Positions 1 through 4,179 of a DNA stretch of 4,179 nt are shown here, one piece after another. A model generated the notes under the pieces. That model saw nothing but the letters and a program-made list of their open reading frames with translations, ran no database searches and had not been told where the DNA came from. A program made the translations under genes and the position numbers. Position 1 is the first letter of the stretch, and each line of letters begins with the position of its first letter. Origin of the DNA: Naegleria gruberi (lineage: Eukaryota); NCBI GenBank assembly GCA_000004985.1, contig GG739193.1; one strand, 5' to 3'.

Positions 1-419
1 TTGATTATTATTCATATTTATATAATGTTATATTATTAACATTAGTAGTACAATAATAGTGAAAAGTGTTGTTAATGGGTTATAATACTCAATTAATTAT
101 ATATTAAGGAAAAGTTGAGAATACTCGAATATTTAAACTATATATATTTGACTCGTAAAAAGTATATACTCTTTTATATATATTATTATAAAATGATGAT
201 ATTAATATACTTACAAATATATTTATAATTATTATTCCTAATAAAAATTACAATATATTAATAGTATTTATTTAAAGATAAATATGAGAATGACGCAATA
301 ATATTCAATCTATCAATAATTGAATGATATTAATGCAATAGTAGTAGTGTTCTGTGATGGATGGGATCTTTTTTTAATGTAATTGTGTAAATAAAAGCTT
401 CACAATAATATGAGAGAGA

Positions 420-640
420 GCCATCTCTCCTCATTTAGACATTGAATAACCATGTTGATTTTCATGCTCGTAATGGAGGCGTATTGGAAAAAGTGCCCCC
501 TATGTGAGAGTTCCTCAATACTACCAATGAAGAGTTCTCACTCAAGACACATCATCACCACCCAAACACACTCTCTCTCATTCAAACGCTCCACATTTGA
601 AATTGTGTGCTCAATGATGTGAACAAAAGGAGAGATAATA
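420..640. other. C-rich, GC-rich compositional island of unknown nature. It could be a ncRNA gene, a relic of a mobile element or foreign DNA, or a small ORF.
   Basis: My manual count over 481..580 gives 44/100 G+C, split as 31 C and 13 G on the + strand. The flank at 181..280 gives 9/100. The island holds pyrimidine tracts (ctctctctc at 571..579, caccaccc) and the gagagagag/ctctc pair at 412..429. It also has an internal direct repeat, agagttcctca (507..517) and agagttctcac (531..541), and a 6-bp inverted pair, gtgaga 504..509 with tctcac 536..541. Confidence 0.5.
452..622 (+). CDS. Speculative 56-codon small ORF inside the GC-rich island, encoding MLIFMLVMEAYWKKCPLCESSSILPMKSSHSRHIITTQTHSLSFKRSTFEIVCSMM. 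It contains a CxxC motif.
   Basis: ATG 452 to TGA 620..622 is open. However the codons are G/C-ending (ctc, gcg, ccc, cac, atc, acc, cgc), unlike the large gene next to it. There is no A-run start context, and the ORF is short. It is more likely a chance ORF in a non-coding GC-rich element. Confidence 0.12.
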   Translation: MLIFMLVMEAYWKKCPLCESSSILPMKSSHSRHIITTQTHSLSFKRSTFEIVCSMM

Positions 641-690
641 TCATTAAAGGTTGATAATTTTATTAGGATAGTAAGGAAACCTAATAAGGG

Positions 691-716
691 TTTAACATCT
701 ATTGATTGATGTTAAA
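691..716. repeat. 9-bp inverted repeat with an 8-nt spacer.
   Basis: tttaacatc (691..699) is the reverse complement of gatgttaaa (708..716). It is short and AT-rich, so a chance occurrence is plausible. Confidence 0.5.
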
Positions 717-1009
717 TAAAATATTGATAATTATAAGACAATAGAATAATTGACTTAATTTTTGACATGAATAATCTCTAATCTTGTAATATTAAATAAT
801 TATAATAAATTTTTACAAGTGTATTTAACTTTAAATATTTTCACTTCAATAGATAATTTGAGAACAGTAATTAATTGTATGTGATAATTTCTTTATTTCA
901 ACAACACTTGGCTAGTAGTGTATTCAAAATATATTAAGTTTAAATATCGGAATAATTGTTAAACTATTATGAATGATAAATAATTATCATGATCCAATAG
1001 CCAACATTA

Positions 1010-1064
1010 AAATGTCAGTGATAGGAAATAAAATCAGTAATATTAAATTCCATCACTGACATTT
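1010..1064. repeat. Perfect 13-bp inverted repeat with a 4-bp inner extension, predicted to form a hairpin, immediately upstream of the start codon.
   Basis: aaatgtcagtgat (1010..1022) is the exact reverse complement of atcactgacattt (1052..1064). After a one-base bulge at a1023, ggaa (1024..1027) pairs with ttcc (1048..1051). The loop is about 20 nt. The stem is relatively GC-containing (gtcagtg) in about 90%-AT surroundings. It ends 12 nt before ATG 1077. Confidence 0.8.
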
Positions 1065-1076
1065 GACAATAAAAAA

Positions 1077-1769
1077 ATGTTTAATCTTCTTCGTAGACTT
1101 TCAAATGTAAATGAAGAAGCAATAGAATCAAATAGTAATTTAAATAATCCCATATCATCATCATCATCTAATACAAATACAAATAGTACTAGTTCATTAT
1201 CTAAAATATTACCACCATTAAAAGATTCAAAATTATTTTCATCTGATTTTAAACGTAATAATAATAAACAACAACAACATGAACATGAACAACAAATAAC
1301 ATCAGATGATTCATCAGATGAAGATGATGATATTATGAATAATTTACATTTGACACCTAAAAGTCAATCATTAACACAATCAAATCCACTTTCAACCACT
1401 TCATCTTTATTTACTTCTACTACACCTTCATCATCTGTTAATAATACATCATCATCATCTAAAAATCAATTTGGATCATGGTTATTAGCTACACCACGTA
1501 GAAGTCAATCTACCACTTCATCACCTATTATAAATAATTCAGTATCAAATCAATCATCATCATCAGTTGCATCAAATAATTATAATAATACTTCACCATT
1601 CAGAAGATTTTCAGTATTTTCAAGTAATCATCACAATAATAATAATAGTAGTGCATTTGGATTTTTAACGAGTAGGAGTAGTTTCTCCTATTCATCTCCT
1701 TCACCTTCATCAAGGAAAAAAATTCATCATCATCCTCCTCTACTACTACTAGTAATAATCATAATCATT
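1077..1769 (+). CDS. 5' part of a large low-complexity (Ser/Asn/Thr-rich) protein. The N-terminus is MFNLLRRLSNVNEEAIESNSNLNN. The CDS is partial because it runs into the N-run.
   Basis: The ATG at 1077 is the first ATG after an in-frame stop at 1044..1046. It sits in an a7-ATG-t context, the A-run Kozak-like motif typical of dictyostelid genes. The frame stays open for 231 codons in very AT-rich DNA, where random frames close within about 10 codons. Codon usage is dictyostelid-like (tca, aat, caa, tta, att, cca, ggt), and (tca)4-5, (caa)3 and (act)3 microsatellites encode S, Q and T runs. The reading frame of the last roughly 50 nt before the gap is uncertain; see the finding at 1682..1769. 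Confidence 0.6.
1155..1169 (+). repeat. (tca)4-tct trinucleotide repeat encoding SSSSS. It is the representative case; similar (tca)n runs occur at about 1446..1460 and 1553..1564, and (caa)3 occurs at 1269..1277.
   Basis: Direct reading. The repeat is in frame with the 1077 CDS. Confidence 0.85.
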
Positions 1770-2648
1770 NNNNNNNNNNNNNNNNNNNNNNNNNNNNNNN
1801 NNNNNNNNNNNNNNNNNNNNNNNNNNNNNNNNNNNNNNNNNNNNNNNNNNNNNNNNNNNNNNNNNNNNNNNNNNNNNNNNNNNNNNNNNNNNNNNNNNNN
1901 NNNNNNNNNNNNNNNNNNNNNNNNNNNNNNNNNNNNNNNNNNNNNNNNNNNNNNNNNNNNNNNNNNNNNNNNNNNNNNNNNNNNNNNNNNNNNNNNNNNN
2001 NNNNNNNNNNNNNNNNNNNNNNNNNNNNNNNNNNNNNNNNNNNNNNNNNNNNNNNNNNNNNNNNNNNNNNNNNNNNNNNNNNNNNNNNNNNNNNNNNNNN
2101 NNNNNNNNNNNNNNNNNNNNNNNNNNNNNNNNNNNNNNNNNNNNNNNNNNNNNNNNNNNNNNNNNNNNNNNNNNNNNNNNNNNNNNNNNNNNNNNNNNNN
2201 NNNNNNNNNNNNNNNNNNNNNNNNNNNNNNNNNNNNNNNNNNNNNNNNNNNNNNNNNNNNNNNNNNNNNNNNNNNNNNNNNNNNNNNNNNNNNNNNNNNN
2301 NNNNNNNNNNNNNNNNNNNNNNNNNNNNNNNNNNNNNNNNNNNNNNNNNNNNNNNNNNNNNNNNNNNNNNNNNNNNNNNNNNNNNNNNNNNNNNNNNNNN
2401 NNNNNNNNNNNNNNNNNNNNNNNNNNNNNNNNNNNNNNNNNNNNNNNNNNNNNNNNNNNNNNNNNNNNNNNNNNNNNNNNNNNNNNNNNNNNNNNNNNNN
2501 NNNNNNNNNNNNNNNNNNNNNNNNNNNNNNNNNNNNNNNNNNNNNNNNNNNNNNNNNNNNNNNNNNNNNNNNNNNNNNNNNNNNNNNNNNNNNNNNNNNN
2601 NNNNNNNNNNNNNNNNNNNNNNNNNNNNNNNNNNNNNNNNNNNNNNNN
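1770..2648. other. Run of 879 N, either an assembly gap or a hard-masked segment. Sequence is unknown, so no feature can be called inside it.
   Basis: Direct observation of n characters. The left flank enters the run through trinucleotide microsatellites (cat/cct/act/aat). That is consistent with an unassembled low-complexity coding repeat, but this is inference. Confidence 0.95.
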
Positions 2649-2649
2649 T

Positions 2650-4179
2650 GAACATTATTTTGATTTTAAATTAATTATAAATATTGTACAATATTTTAGA
2701 AGTTTACAATTTAAAAATATTTTAGAAATTAATTTTAATATTAATCATATTTTAAATTCAAATTTACAAAATAATTTTTTATTTAATGGATTATCAATTT
2801 CATATTGGTTATATATTTTTACTTTTATAGATATTTCTAATTTTAGTAATTATAAAACAATTAGTGAATCATGTAAATATTTTAATATTATTTTAAAACA
2901 TCCATTTTTATTATTTCAATTTTTAATTCATTTTATTCCAATTCAACATTTAGAAACAAATTCAATTTTATTATTTCAACAATTTAAATTTTTTAATTTA
3001 AAATTTAATTATGAACATTTTTGTTTATCTTTAATTTTAGATAAATTTAGTCAATTTACAAATTTAGATTTTTTAAATAATCAATTATCTATACTTGCTA
3101 ATTTAAATCATATTCCAACAAATCATCATTCTTTATTTCATCATTTTAAAAATAAAAATGAATTAGATTTATCACCTTCTATAAATGGTAATAATAATAA
3201 TTTAAATAATAATTCAAATAATAATTTAAATAATAATAATGGTAGTAGTAGTAGTAGTGGAGGTAATACACCCAATACACCCAATACACCAAGAGGTAAT
3301 TTAACACCACGTGGTAAATCATCAACTCCTAATACTCCTAATACTCCGAATGAAAATATTGATGAAATTTTTAAACAACAAGAAGAATTAAATTCATCTT
3401 TTAATTCTAATCATAATTCTAATAGTCATTCTAATAATAATTCTAATAATTCTAATAATAATGATAATAGTAAAACATCTATAGATATATATAAATACAT
3501 TTATAGAAATATTAAAAATAGAATTCATTTAATTGATAATGAATATCAAAATGTTAATGATTTTATTAAATTAAAATATAGTATTGGTGATAGAGATAGA
3601 TTAATACAAAAAACAATTTTAAATTTATTAAATGAAGAATTATCATTAAAATTTTATCATTTCCAAAAAAAGAAATTAACAAATTATAGAAAAAATGAAT
3701 TAAGTAATTTATTTGGAATTTATTATAATAGAAAATGTGAATTTTATTTTATTACATTTGGTCAATATATATTTTCAATTCATTGGAAGAATTTTGAAAT
3801 TTATTTAACTAAAATTAATAATAATATTTCCATATATAGTACTTGTACACATTTTGATCATTTTGAAAATTTTAAACATAATTCATTAAATAATATTAAA
3901 AATATTAATTTAGAAGGTAATTGGACAGCATGTTTAAAATATTATAGTAATAATTATGATTCCTTTTTTGAAACTAAATATTTTTTAAAAATTAAAAAAA
4001 TTGATTTACATTATCATGCAGATATTGATACTATAAATTTAGAAAATGATGATGAAAATAATGAATTTAATTTATTAAATATTTCACATGAATCAATGGA
4101 TTTAGATCATTTAATTTCCAATTATGGAAAAGTAAAAATGGAAATTGCATTAAAAAATACACCTAAAAATAGAAATAGT
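2650..4179 (+). CDS. Continuation of the same protein-coding gene, most likely the downstream part of the 1077 gene. It is partial at both ends and runs off the window. It contains an Asn/Ser low-complexity linker with a Thr-Pro repeat cluster, then a non-repetitive C-terminal region.
   Basis: The frame with codon starts at 2650, 2653 and so on is open for all 510 codons from the gap edge to the window end. The other two + frames hit stops at 2661 and 2672. This stretch is 64-87% AT by my manual counts of 100-120-nt segments. Across that range a stop-free run of 510 codons happens by chance with negligible probability. The first in-frame ATG is at 4096, so no start codon exists for 482 codons and translation must begin upstream, in the gap or at 1077. 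Codon usage is dictyostelid-like. The ORF track omits it because there is no stop inside the window. Confidence 0.65.
3244..3258 (+). repeat. (agt)5 microsatellite encoding SSSSS within G-SSSSS-GG.
   Basis: Direct reading. The codons 3241 ggt, 3244 agt and following are in the open downstream frame. Confidence 0.85.
3265..3291 (+). repeat. Tandem 9-nt repeat, three copies (aatacaccc, aatacaccc, aatacacca), encoding NTP-NTP-NTP.
   Basis: Direct reading. The three units are in frame. Confidence 0.85.
3322..3348 (+). repeat. Second imperfect tandem 9-nt repeat (tcaactcct, aatactcct, aatactccg), encoding STP-NTP-NTP with different codons from the first block.
   Basis: Direct reading. Thr is act here versus aca upstream, and Pro is cct/ccg versus ccc/cca. 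Confidence 0.75.

What the first reader, a model, noticed from the sequence alone, without database searches (positions are those of the whole stretch)
420..640. C-rich, 44%-GC island in otherwise roughly 9%-GC intergenic DNA
A roughly 200-nt block jumps about five-fold in GC relative to its flanks. It is strongly strand-asymmetric, with C far more frequent than G on the + strand and with ctctctctc and caccaccc tracts. In dictyostelid genomes, GC-rich islands in intergenic DNA are usually functional (small RNA genes or tRNAs) or foreign (transposon relics). I found no tRNA B-box (ggttcgantcc) on either strand and no complete box C/D arrangement. A near-match (acccaaac at 560..567) to the dictyostelid upstream element for small-RNA genes is not exact. 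Here I am relying on my memory of the consensus [AT]CCCA[CT]AA. The island contains a 56-codon ORF (452..622) with a CPLC motif, but its G/C-ending codon choice is unlike the neighbouring gene. Internal direct and inverted repeats (agagttcctca/agagttctcac, gtgaga/tctcac) suggest RNA structure or a degenerate repeat element.
Basis: seen in the sequence. Interest (0 to 1): 0.55.

Follow-up and report, generated by a model that had tools for sequence, protein, structure and literature searches.

The report
Unclassified GC-rich block upstream of gene
A 223-base stretch about twice as GC-rich as its AT-rich surroundings sits upstream of an orphan amoeba-type gene; it is real, but it matches no known RNA gene, protein or mobile element, so it stays an unclassified non-coding block, perhaps a promoter element.

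Summary
The island is real but overstated. Positions 420-640 are 40.7% GC, and the sharpest block, 412-634, is 42.2%. The flanks are 18-21% GC, not about 9%, so the jump is about two-fold, not five-fold. The C-over-G skew is confined to 541-600 (C 24, G 3).

Every family test was negative:
- no tRNA
- no Rfam family
- no box C/D or H/ACA architecture
- no exact DUSE on either strand
- no pol III boxes in the block

The block's fold is not clearly better than shuffles (z -0.5 on +, -1.9 on -). The 56-codon ORF is within chance (P 0.05-0.10). Its one database hit is an artefact of summing eight repeats. The block has no DNA or protein relative in any collection I could reach.

Positive leads are weak. 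There is a 28-nt C/A-rich tract (545-572) packed with GBF/G-box-type heptamers, 505-532 nt upstream of the neighbouring gene's ATG. A perfect 7-bp direct repeat (ATAATAT) abuts both edges. An 11-bp perfect inverted repeat lies at 410-420/571-581.

My best guess is a cis-regulatory block (about 0.3). An inert insertion relic and an unannotated ncRNA follow closely (about 0.25 each). Copy number, expression and synteny could not be tested, because no dictyostelid genome was reachable.

The parts
412..634 (.). GC-rich block (42.2% GC) with sharp edges. The 20 nt inside each edge are 55% and 40% GC; the AT-rich DNA just outside is about 20-24%.
405..411 (.). Left copy of the perfect 7-bp direct repeat ATAATAT, abutting the block.
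   Evidence: P 0.013-0.047 allowing 2-5 nt of slack
635..641 (.). Right copy of the direct repeat ATAATAT, abutting the block.
410..420 (.). Left arm (ATGAGAGAGAG) of an 11-bp perfect inverted repeat. It also forms a local GA/CT near-palindrome with 424-432.
571..581 (.). Right arm (CTCTCTCTCAT) of the 11-bp perfect inverted repeat.
505..542 (.). Hairpin or inverted repeat with 14-nt arms (GTGAGAGTTCCTCA / TGAAGAGTTCTCAC) and a 10-nt loop.
   Evidence: z -2.1 on +, -2.4 on -
545..572 (-). G/T-rich tract (C/A-rich on +). [quoted passage not shown] The exact match is TGGGTGG at 558-564.
   Evidence: consensus from PMC2257962
541..600 (+). The only strongly strand-skewed part of the island (C 24, A 20, T 13, G 3).
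560..567 (+). DUSE near-match ACCCAAAC. It is 6 of 8 against [AT]CCCA[CT]AA and 7 of 8 against [AT]CCCA[AT]AA.
452..622 (+). 56-codon ORF with CPLC. Judged not to be a gene.
582..600 (.). Short inverted repeat TTCAAA...TTTGAA. It overlaps an AAATGTG (TGTG-box-like) heptamer on the minus strand at 592-598.
657..715 (.). Two adjacent hairpins just outside the block (657-689 and 692-715), including a perfect CArG box, CCTAATAAGG, at 680-689. This is the strongest local folding signal near the island.

Best explanation
The island is a discrete non-coding DNA block in the 5' intergenic region of the downstream orphan gene (ATG at 1077). It most likely acts, if it acts at all, at the DNA level as a promoter or enhancer module, not as an RNA gene or an exon.

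Its most distinctive part is the C/A-rich tract at 545-572 (G/T-rich on the minus strand). This resembles the G-box elements bound by the G-box binding factor GBF, which switches on post-aggregative prestalk and prespore genes. The short palindromes in and beside the block, and the CArG box at 680-689, would be further factor-binding sites.

Shown:
- composition, position and motif content
- absence of RNA-gene and coding hallmarks

Inferred:
- that any factor binds
- that the block regulates the neighbouring gene
- that its GC content is kept by selection against the strong AT mutation bias of such genomes
For: - Position: the block lies 443-665 nt upstream of the ATG at 1077. All three reading frames have stops between the last upstream AG (1034-1035) and 1077, so the block cannot be an upstream coding exon of that gene.
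- GBF sites: the published GBF response element is (T/G)G(T/G)G(T/G)G(T/G) (PMC2257962; GbfA binds G-rich motifs in prestalk and prespore genes, PMC6598861). It matches exactly at 558-564 (-). Eight further overlapping one-mismatch matches pack 545-572.
- Skew: the 60-nt tract 541-600 has C 24 and G 3. That is hard to fit into a compact base-paired RNA but typical of a DNA-level C/A-rich element.
- Strand signal: the G:U wobble asymmetry of the hairpins is inconsistent. 505-542 and 657-689 pair better on +, and 582-600 better on -. This suggests DNA palindromes rather than one transcribed strand.
- CArG box: a perfect CC(A/T)6GG lies 46 nt from the block (0.15 expected in the whole window).
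- RNA alternatives tested negative.
- Coding alternatives tested negative.
Against: - Size: known G-box elements as I recall them are tens of bases, not a 223-bp block at 42% GC. The identified motifs explain only about a quarter of the block.
- Only one heptamer matches the GBF consensus exactly. Three exact matches in the whole window occur in 14 of 200 shuffles.
- The sharp edges and the flanking 7-bp direct repeat fit an insertion better.
- No binding, expression or conservation data could be obtained.
- The downstream gene is an orphan of unknown expression pattern.
Confidence: 0.3

Rival explanations
1. The block is an inert relic of inserted DNA. It would be a fragment of a mobile element or other relocated sequence (for example filler DNA at a repaired break) that arrived recently enough not to have decayed to the local AT-rich composition.
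For: - The block has sharp composition edges at 411/412 and 634/635.
- A perfect 7-bp direct repeat, ATAATAT, abuts both edges like a target-site duplication (P 0.013-0.047 with 2-5 nt of slack).
- GA tracts lie at both ends, and an 11-bp perfect inverted repeat lies at 410-420/571-581.
- No functional hallmark of any RNA or protein family was found.
Against: - The ends of the 412-634 block are not inverted repeats of each other. The 11-bp inverted repeat bounds a different unit (410-581) that has no flanking duplication.
- There is no poly(A) tail.
- There is no tRNA gene nearby, as would be expected for the tRNA-targeted dictyostelid retroelements (targeting is from my own knowledge).
- No similarity was found to any protein, phage, plasmid, E. 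coli, prokaryotic genome, viral or metagenome sequence. None of these collections holds dictyostelid repeats, so this is weak evidence.
- The direct repeat is AT-only and only marginally significant.
Confidence: 0.25
2. The block is an unannotated non-coding RNA gene of about 170-230 nt, more likely on the minus strand, belonging to no curated family.
For: - The GC content (41-42%) lies in or just above the range of dictyostelid small RNAs (Class I RNAs are 32-41%; PMC7919456). It is far above lncRNAs (17%), ORFs (25%) and intergenic DNA (13%) in D. discoideum (PMC5295588).
- The minus strand folds somewhat better than shuffles: z -2.2 for 400-650, -1.9 for 412-634 and -3.5 for 400-720. Eight control windows gave z between -0.9 and +1.2.
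- An 11-bp perfect stem can close 410-581.
- A TTTT run follows 7 nt after the outer helix on the minus strand (393-396).
- All weak Rfam hits lie on the minus strand.
Against: - No Rfam family comes near its threshold (best 17 bits against gathering scores of 45-75).
- No tRNA.
- No H/ACA architecture.
- There is a C box but no D box.
- No A or B box in the block.
- No exact DUSE on either strand in 1-1100. DUSE precedes all expressed Class I genes and the spliceosomal RNA genes.
- The plus strand of the block folds like its shuffles (z -0.5).
- The strongest structure signal lies outside the block, at 640-719.
- The 60-nt tract with G 3 and C 24 is poorly compatible with compact pairing.
Confidence: 0.25
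3. The island encodes a small protein. This would be either the 56-residue plus-strand ORF (452-622; CPLC motif, C-terminal CSMM) or a minus-strand reading frame (711 down to 403) that is open except for one TGA in a C-L-E-TGA (CxxU-like) context. The second option would make it a selenoprotein exon.
For: - The ORF occupies most of the block.
- GC content differs by codon phase (0.44/0.49/0.30; chi-square P 0.047), in a pattern that fits the minus frame.
- The single in-frame stop of the minus frame is TGA. It is preceded by a hydrophobic stretch and followed by a helix-like stretch.
Against: - The ORF length is within chance (P 0.055-0.10).
- One or fewer stops in the best of six frames occurs in 20-39% of shuffles.
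- There are no Pfam domains.
- The six-frame peptides have no relative at E<=10 among 5.8 billion proteins.
- The single exhaustive-search hit (E 1.3e-6) comes from summing eight near-identical repeats. One repeat unit scores 13.4 bits, E about 8,000, and the alignment does not extend beyond the ORF.
- The predicted peptides lack or nearly lack N, D, G and K, which is very unlike the downstream N-rich gene in this window, and they use codons rare in such genomes (CGC, GCG, CCC, CTC).
- No SECIS element was found downstream on the minus strand.
- The minus frame has no start codon upstream of the MM just before the TGA.
Confidence: 0.06

Closest known systems
G-box elements bound by GBF (GbfA) in Dictyostelium post-aggregative gene promoters
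   Same: - G/T-rich on one strand (C/A-rich on the other) and embedded in AT-rich upstream DNA a few hundred bases from the ATG.
- Matches the (T/G)G(T/G)G(T/G)G(T/G) response element.
   Different: - The known elements, as I recall them, are short (tens of bases) and usually occur as pairs or clusters of sites.
- Here only about 28 nt of a 223-bp GC-rich block looks like this, with one exact heptamer.
- No evidence of GBF dependence of the neighbouring gene.
DUSE-driven small ncRNA genes of dictyostelids (spliceosomal snRNAs, Class I RNAs)
   Same: - A GC-rich island in AT-rich intergenic DNA, with GC content in the Class I range.
- A DUSE-like octamer and an AAATGTG heptamer are present.
   Different: - The DUSE-like octamer is inexact and lies inside the island, not about 60 nt upstream of it.
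- The octamer and the AAATGTG heptamer are on opposite strands.
- No 11-nt Class I motif, and no Rfam match.
- The island is 3-4 times longer than a Class I RNA.
Short non-autonomous transposon insertions (MITE-like elements or truncated retroelement copies with target-site duplications)
   Same: A discrete block of foreign composition, flanked by a perfect 7-bp direct repeat, with an internal 11-bp inverted repeat.
   Different: - The block termini are not inverted repeats of each other.
- No poly(A) tail.
- No known family match.
- Copy number unknown.
Box C/D snoRNAs
   Same: A perfect C box (GUGAUGA) on the minus strand at 558-552. The weak Rfam hits are all C/D families on that strand.
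   Different: - No CUGA D box anywhere in 400-552 on that strand.
- No terminal stem next to the C box.
- Scores of 11-17 bits against thresholds of 45-75.

Membership tests
tRNA gene | Cloverleaf with anticodon, detected by ARAGORN | tested here: not met
   0 genes in the whole window
tRNA gene / pol III type 2 gene | Internal A box (TRGCNNAGTGG) and B box (GGTTCGANTCC) | tested here: not met
   No B box within 3 mismatches in the island. The only A-box-like site in the island has 2 mismatches, at chance frequency.
Box C/D snoRNA | C box RUGAUGA near the 5' end | tested here: met
   GUGAUGA on the minus strand at 558-552
Box C/D snoRNA | D box CUGA near the 3' end, with a short terminal stem joining the C and D flanks | tested here: not met
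   No CUGA on the minus strand between 400 and 552. Rfam C/D hits score 11-17 bits against gathering scores of 45-75.
H/ACA snoRNA | Hairpin, H box (ANANNA), hairpin, then ACA 3 nt from the end, with single hairpins carrying pseudouridylation pockets | tested here: not met
   My own scan of both strands over 330-720 found only branched or pocket-less candidates.
DUSE-dependent dictyostelid ncRNA gene (snRNA, Class I/II) | DUSE about 60 nt upstream of the transcript start | tested here: not met
   No exact match to [AT]CCCA[CT]AA on either strand in 1-1100. The only CCCA on the plus strand lies inside the island and is 7 of 8 against [AT]CCCA[AT]AA.
Class I RNA | 42-65 nt, a terminal 5-bp stem, and the conserved 11-nt motif CCUUACAGCAA next to the 5' stem | tested here: not met
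   No Rfam hit, even when only 111 nt were searched. The only fragment is CCTTAC at 676-671 (-) between AGGTT and AACCT, outside the island.
Any curated RNA family (Rfam 15) | Covariance-model score at or above the family's gathering threshold | tested here: not met
Transposable-element relic | Multiple copies in the host genome, or a match to a repeat library | not testable with these tools
   No dictyostelid genome or repeat library was available. Exact-word scans of the metagenome and prokaryotic collections were empty.
Transposable-element relic | Terminal repeats plus a target-site duplication | tested here: inconclusive
   A 7-bp direct repeat abuts 412-634 (P 0.013-0.047). The 11-bp inverted repeat bounds a different unit (410-581) that has no duplication.
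Transposable-element relic | Similarity to transposon proteins | tested here: not met
   Six-frame peptides found nothing at E<=10. No Pfam domains.
GBF-type G-box promoter element | Match to (T/G)G(T/G)G(T/G)G(T/G), usually as paired sites | tested here: inconclusive
   One exact heptamer and eight overlapping one-mismatch heptamers in 545-572 (-). The exact-match count in the window is not significant (14 of 200 shuffles).
GBF-type G-box promoter element | GBF binding and GBF-dependent, post-aggregative expression of the adjacent gene | not testable with these tools
   No expression or binding data were available. The gene is an orphan.
Protein-coding small ORF | ORF longer than chance, host-like codon and amino-acid usage, and homologues | tested here: not met
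   P 0.055-0.10. No credible homologue. The peptide has no N, D or G.
Selenoprotein | In-frame UGA plus a SECIS element in the 3' UTR | tested here: not met
   A TGA in C-L-E-TGA context is present. No SECIS was found by Rfam in 1-1770. There is no AUGA-type core in 16-400 on the minus strand and no homologue.
Telomerase RNA | Template complementary to the telomere repeat, A(G)1-8 in D. discoideum, with a boundary element and pseudoknot | tested here: inconclusive
   CU tracts (424-432, 571-579) and CCCCCU (496-501) are complementary to A(G)n units. No alignment region, pseudoknot or other telomerase RNA feature could be established. No Rfam telomerase family matched.

The most novel reading that the evidence does not exclude
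The island is the gene for a so-far unknown dictyostelid RNA. The most interesting option is the missing telomerase RNA.

D. discoideum telomeres are irregular A(G)1-8 repeats. Extracts have RNase-sensitive, TERT-dependent activity, and no telomerase RNA has been identified (PMC6759168).

The plus strand of the island carries CU tracts (UCUCUCCUC at 424-432, CUCUCUCUC at 571-579) and a CCCCCU (496-501). These are complementary to A(G)n units. The GA tracts could pair with them as boundary helices.

Nothing else supports this. (CT)n tracts are common low-complexity sequence.
Probability: 0.02. Interest if true: 0.85.

Novelty: new member of a known kind. Interest (0 to 1): 0.3.

Why it matters
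In extremely AT-rich genomes, unconstrained DNA drifts towards about 13% GC. A 223-bp block held at 42% GC is therefore either young or under selection.

If it is a promoter module, it would point to how an orphan, fast-evolving gene is wired into the developmental (GBF-type) programme. If it is an RNA gene, it would add to a still incomplete dictyostelid ncRNA catalogue. If it is a relic, it is ordinary.

The practical value of this check is narrower. It removes the tRNA, snoRNA, DUSE-gene, coding and selenoprotein readings. It also shows that a seemingly significant protein hit was a repeat-summation artefact.

Tried and rejected
1. Known RNA families. Rfam E-value searches of 1-1770, 380-730 and 620-730 gave only chance-level hits. 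ARAGORN found nothing.

2. H/ACA and C/D architectures: rejected.

3. DUSE, TGTG box and pol III boxes: no exact or properly placed element.

4. Coding readings:
- ORF56 was not on record in the contig index, and neither were two neighbouring small ORFs.
- No Pfam domains.
- Six-frame peptides against 5.8 billion proteins found nothing.
- The exhaustive phmmer hit P0001 was shown to be a summation over eight repeats.
- Stop-codon counts and ORF length are within chance.

5. Selenoprotein idea (C-L-E-TGA on the minus strand): no SECIS, no start codon, no homologue.

6. Foreign DNA:
- Distant-mode blastn against E. coli genomes, plasmids and phages gave nothing, or 32-40-nt chance hits at E 0.3-0.9.
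- 22-mer scans of the metagenome and prokaryotic genome collections were empty.
- Peptide-pattern scans of the viral and prokaryotic collections were empty.

7. Synteny route. The neighbouring gene (two queries) found no homologues and no metagenome locus, so no orthologous upstream regions could be fetched.

8. Literature k-mer search. The only hit was a chance 14-mer in a mouse Mos primer. Supplements of dictyostelid snoRNA and miRNA papers do not contain the island or the hairpin sequences.

9. An upstream coding exon of the downstream gene. This is excluded because all three frames contain stops between the last upstream AG (1034-1035) and the ATG at 1077.

Full report
**Setting.** The window is very AT-rich DNA. 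It has a long plus-strand ORF starting at ATG 1077. The ORF is interrupted by an N-masked stretch (1770-2648) and continues in another frame from 2650 to the end of the window. Its product is rich in N, S, Q and T runs. I could not confirm the species. The protein has no Pfam domain. Two queries against the 5.8-billion-protein index found no relative, and so did a metagenome locus search. Everything upstream of 1077 lacks an ORF longer than 56 codons.

**Checking the observation.** The island exists.
- Positions 420-640 are 40.7% GC (C 54, G 36). The peak 100-nt window is 43%.
- The edges are sharp. The best-defined block is 412-634, at 42.2% GC.
- Against the flank composition, this excess has binomial P = 6e-13.

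- The flanks are 18.3% and 20.9% GC and never fall below 12% in 100-nt windows. The contrast is about two-fold, not five-fold.
- The C-over-G skew is confined to 541-600 (C 24, G 3). It is absent from 420-540 (C 27, G 23).
- All quoted motifs and the 56-codon ORF are at the stated coordinates.
- Published D. discoideum values give a yardstick: ORFs 25% GC, lncRNAs 17%, random intergenic DNA 13% (PMC5295588). Class I RNAs are 32-41% (PMC7919456). A 42% block is therefore unusual for anything other than small RNA genes, mobile or foreign DNA, or a constrained element.

**RNA-gene tests.**
- ARAGORN finds no tRNA.
- Rfam searches with permissive filters over 1-1770, 380-730 and 620-730 return only chance-level hits. 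The best in the island scores 17 bits against a threshold of 58.
- The minus strand has a perfect C box (GUGAUGA, 558-552) but no CUGA downstream of it.
- A scan I wrote for hairpin-H-hairpin-ACA found no H/ACA-like architecture.
- There is no B box within three mismatches. The only A-box-like site is at chance level.
- No exact DUSE occurs on either strand in 1-1100. It lies inside the island, and one CCCA is what a C-rich block gives by chance.
- An AAATGTG 'TGTG box' sits at 592-598 on the opposite strand, at chance frequency.

Folding of the block itself is unremarkable on the plus strand (z -0.5) and borderline on the minus strand (z -1.9, with 7 of 150 shuffles as good). Eight control windows elsewhere gave z between -0.9 and +1.2. 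The 251-nt and 321-nt minus-strand windows reach z -2.2 and -3.5. Much of the second value comes from two hairpins outside the block, at 657-715. The hairpins disagree about which strand gains G:U pairs. The 60-nt tract with only 3 G is hard to fit into a compact fold. A structured RNA is therefore possible but poorly supported.

**Coding tests.**
- The 56-codon ORF is not longer than expected (P 0.055-0.10 in dinucleotide shuffles). It uses codons rare in such genomes, and it encodes no N, D or G.
- It is not on record as a called gene.
- GC differs by codon phase (0.44/0.49/0.30; P 0.047). The pattern fits a minus-strand frame (711 down to 403) that is open except for one TGA, in a C-L-E-TGA context. 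I considered a selenoprotein exon. There is no SECIS, no usable start codon and no homologue. One or fewer stops in the best frame occurs in 20-39% of shuffles.
- The exhaustive profile search of ORF56 returned one protein at E = 1.3e-6. It is a 1614-residue bacterial-type protein with eight near-identical 76-residue repeats.
- Each repeat contributes 1-6 bits. A single repeat alone scores 13.4 bits, E about 8,000 at library scale. The alignment does not extend beyond 464-607 in any frame. This is a summation artefact, not homology.

**Foreign or mobile DNA.**
- Distant-mode blastn against E. coli genomes, plasmids and phages gave nothing, or chance 32-40-nt matches.
- Exact 22-mers are absent from the metagenome and prokaryotic genome collections.
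- Peptide-pattern scans of the viral and prokaryotic collections were empty.

None of these collections holds dictyostelid genomes or repeats. The key question, copy number in the host, stays open.

Two structural hints exist. A perfect 7-bp direct repeat, ATAATAT, abuts both edges of the block (405-411 and 635-641; P 0.013-0.047 depending on the slack allowed). An 11-bp perfect inverted repeat, ATGAGAGAGAG/CTCTCTCTCAT, lies at 410-420/571-581. The two hints delimit different units. The direct repeat is AT-only, there is no poly(A) tail, and there is no nearby tRNA gene.

**DNA-level regulatory reading.** The block lies 443-665 nt upstream of the ATG at 1077. It cannot be an upstream coding exon, because all three frames are closed between the last upstream AG and the ATG. 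The skewed tract at 545-572 is G/T-rich on the minus strand (AGTGTGTTTGGGTGGTGATGATGTGTCT). [quoted passage not shown] The only comparable cluster in the window lies in a coding repeat (3266-3310). A perfect CArG box (CCTAATAAGG, 680-689) and several short palindromes sit in and beside the block. Each of these signals is weak. Together they explain perhaps a quarter of the GC-rich sequence.

**Verdict.** The island is a real, sharply bounded, non-coding block that belongs to no recognisable RNA, protein or repeat family.

| Reading | Confidence |
|---|---|
| Cis-regulatory block with a G-box-like core | about 0.3 |
| Inert insertion relic | about 0.25 |
| Unannotated ncRNA | about 0.25 |
| Small protein | about 0.06 |

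The remainder is left unassigned.

The most novel reading not excluded is a new RNA such as the unidentified Dictyostelium telomerase RNA. The CU tracts are complementary to the A(G)n telomere repeat (PMC6759168). I give this about 2%.

Noticed in passing
window 1010-1064: A strong hairpin with 13-bp perfect arms (AAATGTCAGTGAT / ATCACTGACATTT) plus 4 further pairs. It ends 13 nt upstream of the ATG at 1077. z is -5.9 on + and -6.1 on -, with 0 of 200 shuffles as stable. This is far more significant than anything in the island. It could be a 5'-UTR translational control hairpin, a palindromic factor site or a small-RNA precursor. It is not listed in the supplements of two Dictyostelium miRNA papers.
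   Followed up: partly
window 657-715: Two adjacent hairpins just right of the island: TTATTAGG/CCTAATAA (657-689) and TTAACATC/GATGTTAA (692-715). The first contains a perfect CArG box, CCTAATAAGG (680-689; 0.15 expected per window). Local fold z is -3.8 to -5.2, the strongest near the island.
   Followed up: partly
window 682-648, minus strand: A 35-nt stretch, AGGTT-T-CCTTACTATCC...AACCT. It has a 5-bp terminal stem and, next to the 5' half, CCTTAC, the first six bases of the conserved Class I RNA motif CCTTACAGCAA. There is no DUSE about 60 nt upstream and no Rfam hit. It may be a chance match or a decayed Class I-like relic.
   Followed up: partly
window 80-73, minus strand: ACCCATTA matches the DUSE consensus [AT]CCCA[CT]AA at 7 of 8 positions and points leftward out of the window. 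A DUSE-type small RNA gene could lie just beyond position 1.
   Followed up: no
window 1770-2650: The N-masked stretch (879 nt) splits the long ORF. The upstream frame (from 1077) runs into TGA at 2649-2651, while the downstream ORF reads from 2650. The hidden stretch must therefore contain an intron or a frame change, or its length may not be exact.
   Followed up: no
window 1077-4179: The large N/S/Q-rich gene next to the island is an orphan. It has no Pfam domain and no relative in two searches of the 5.8-billion-protein index or in metagenome contigs. The first search was saturated by low-complexity words (8000 candidates).
   Followed up: partly
window 3251-3350: A second 40%-GC 100-nt window lies inside the coding region (the TPNTPN/PRG repeat). 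It carries two exact GBF-type heptamers on the minus strand. It shows that local GC peaks and such heptamers also arise from codon repeats.
   Followed up: no
window 1-1076: The whole upstream region is 'complex' AT-rich DNA. It has only two A/T homopolymer runs of 6 nt or more, and 18-21% GC, which is higher than the 16% GC of the coding stretch 2649-4179. This is unlike the homopolymer-rich, roughly 13%-GC intergenic DNA described for D. discoideum.
   Followed up: no
protein P0001: The exhaustive search reported E = 1.3e-6 for a protein whose eight near-identical repeats each matched ORF56 only weakly. A single unit scores 13.4 bits. This is a reminder that whole-sequence E-values against repeat proteins can be badly inflated.
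   Followed up: yes
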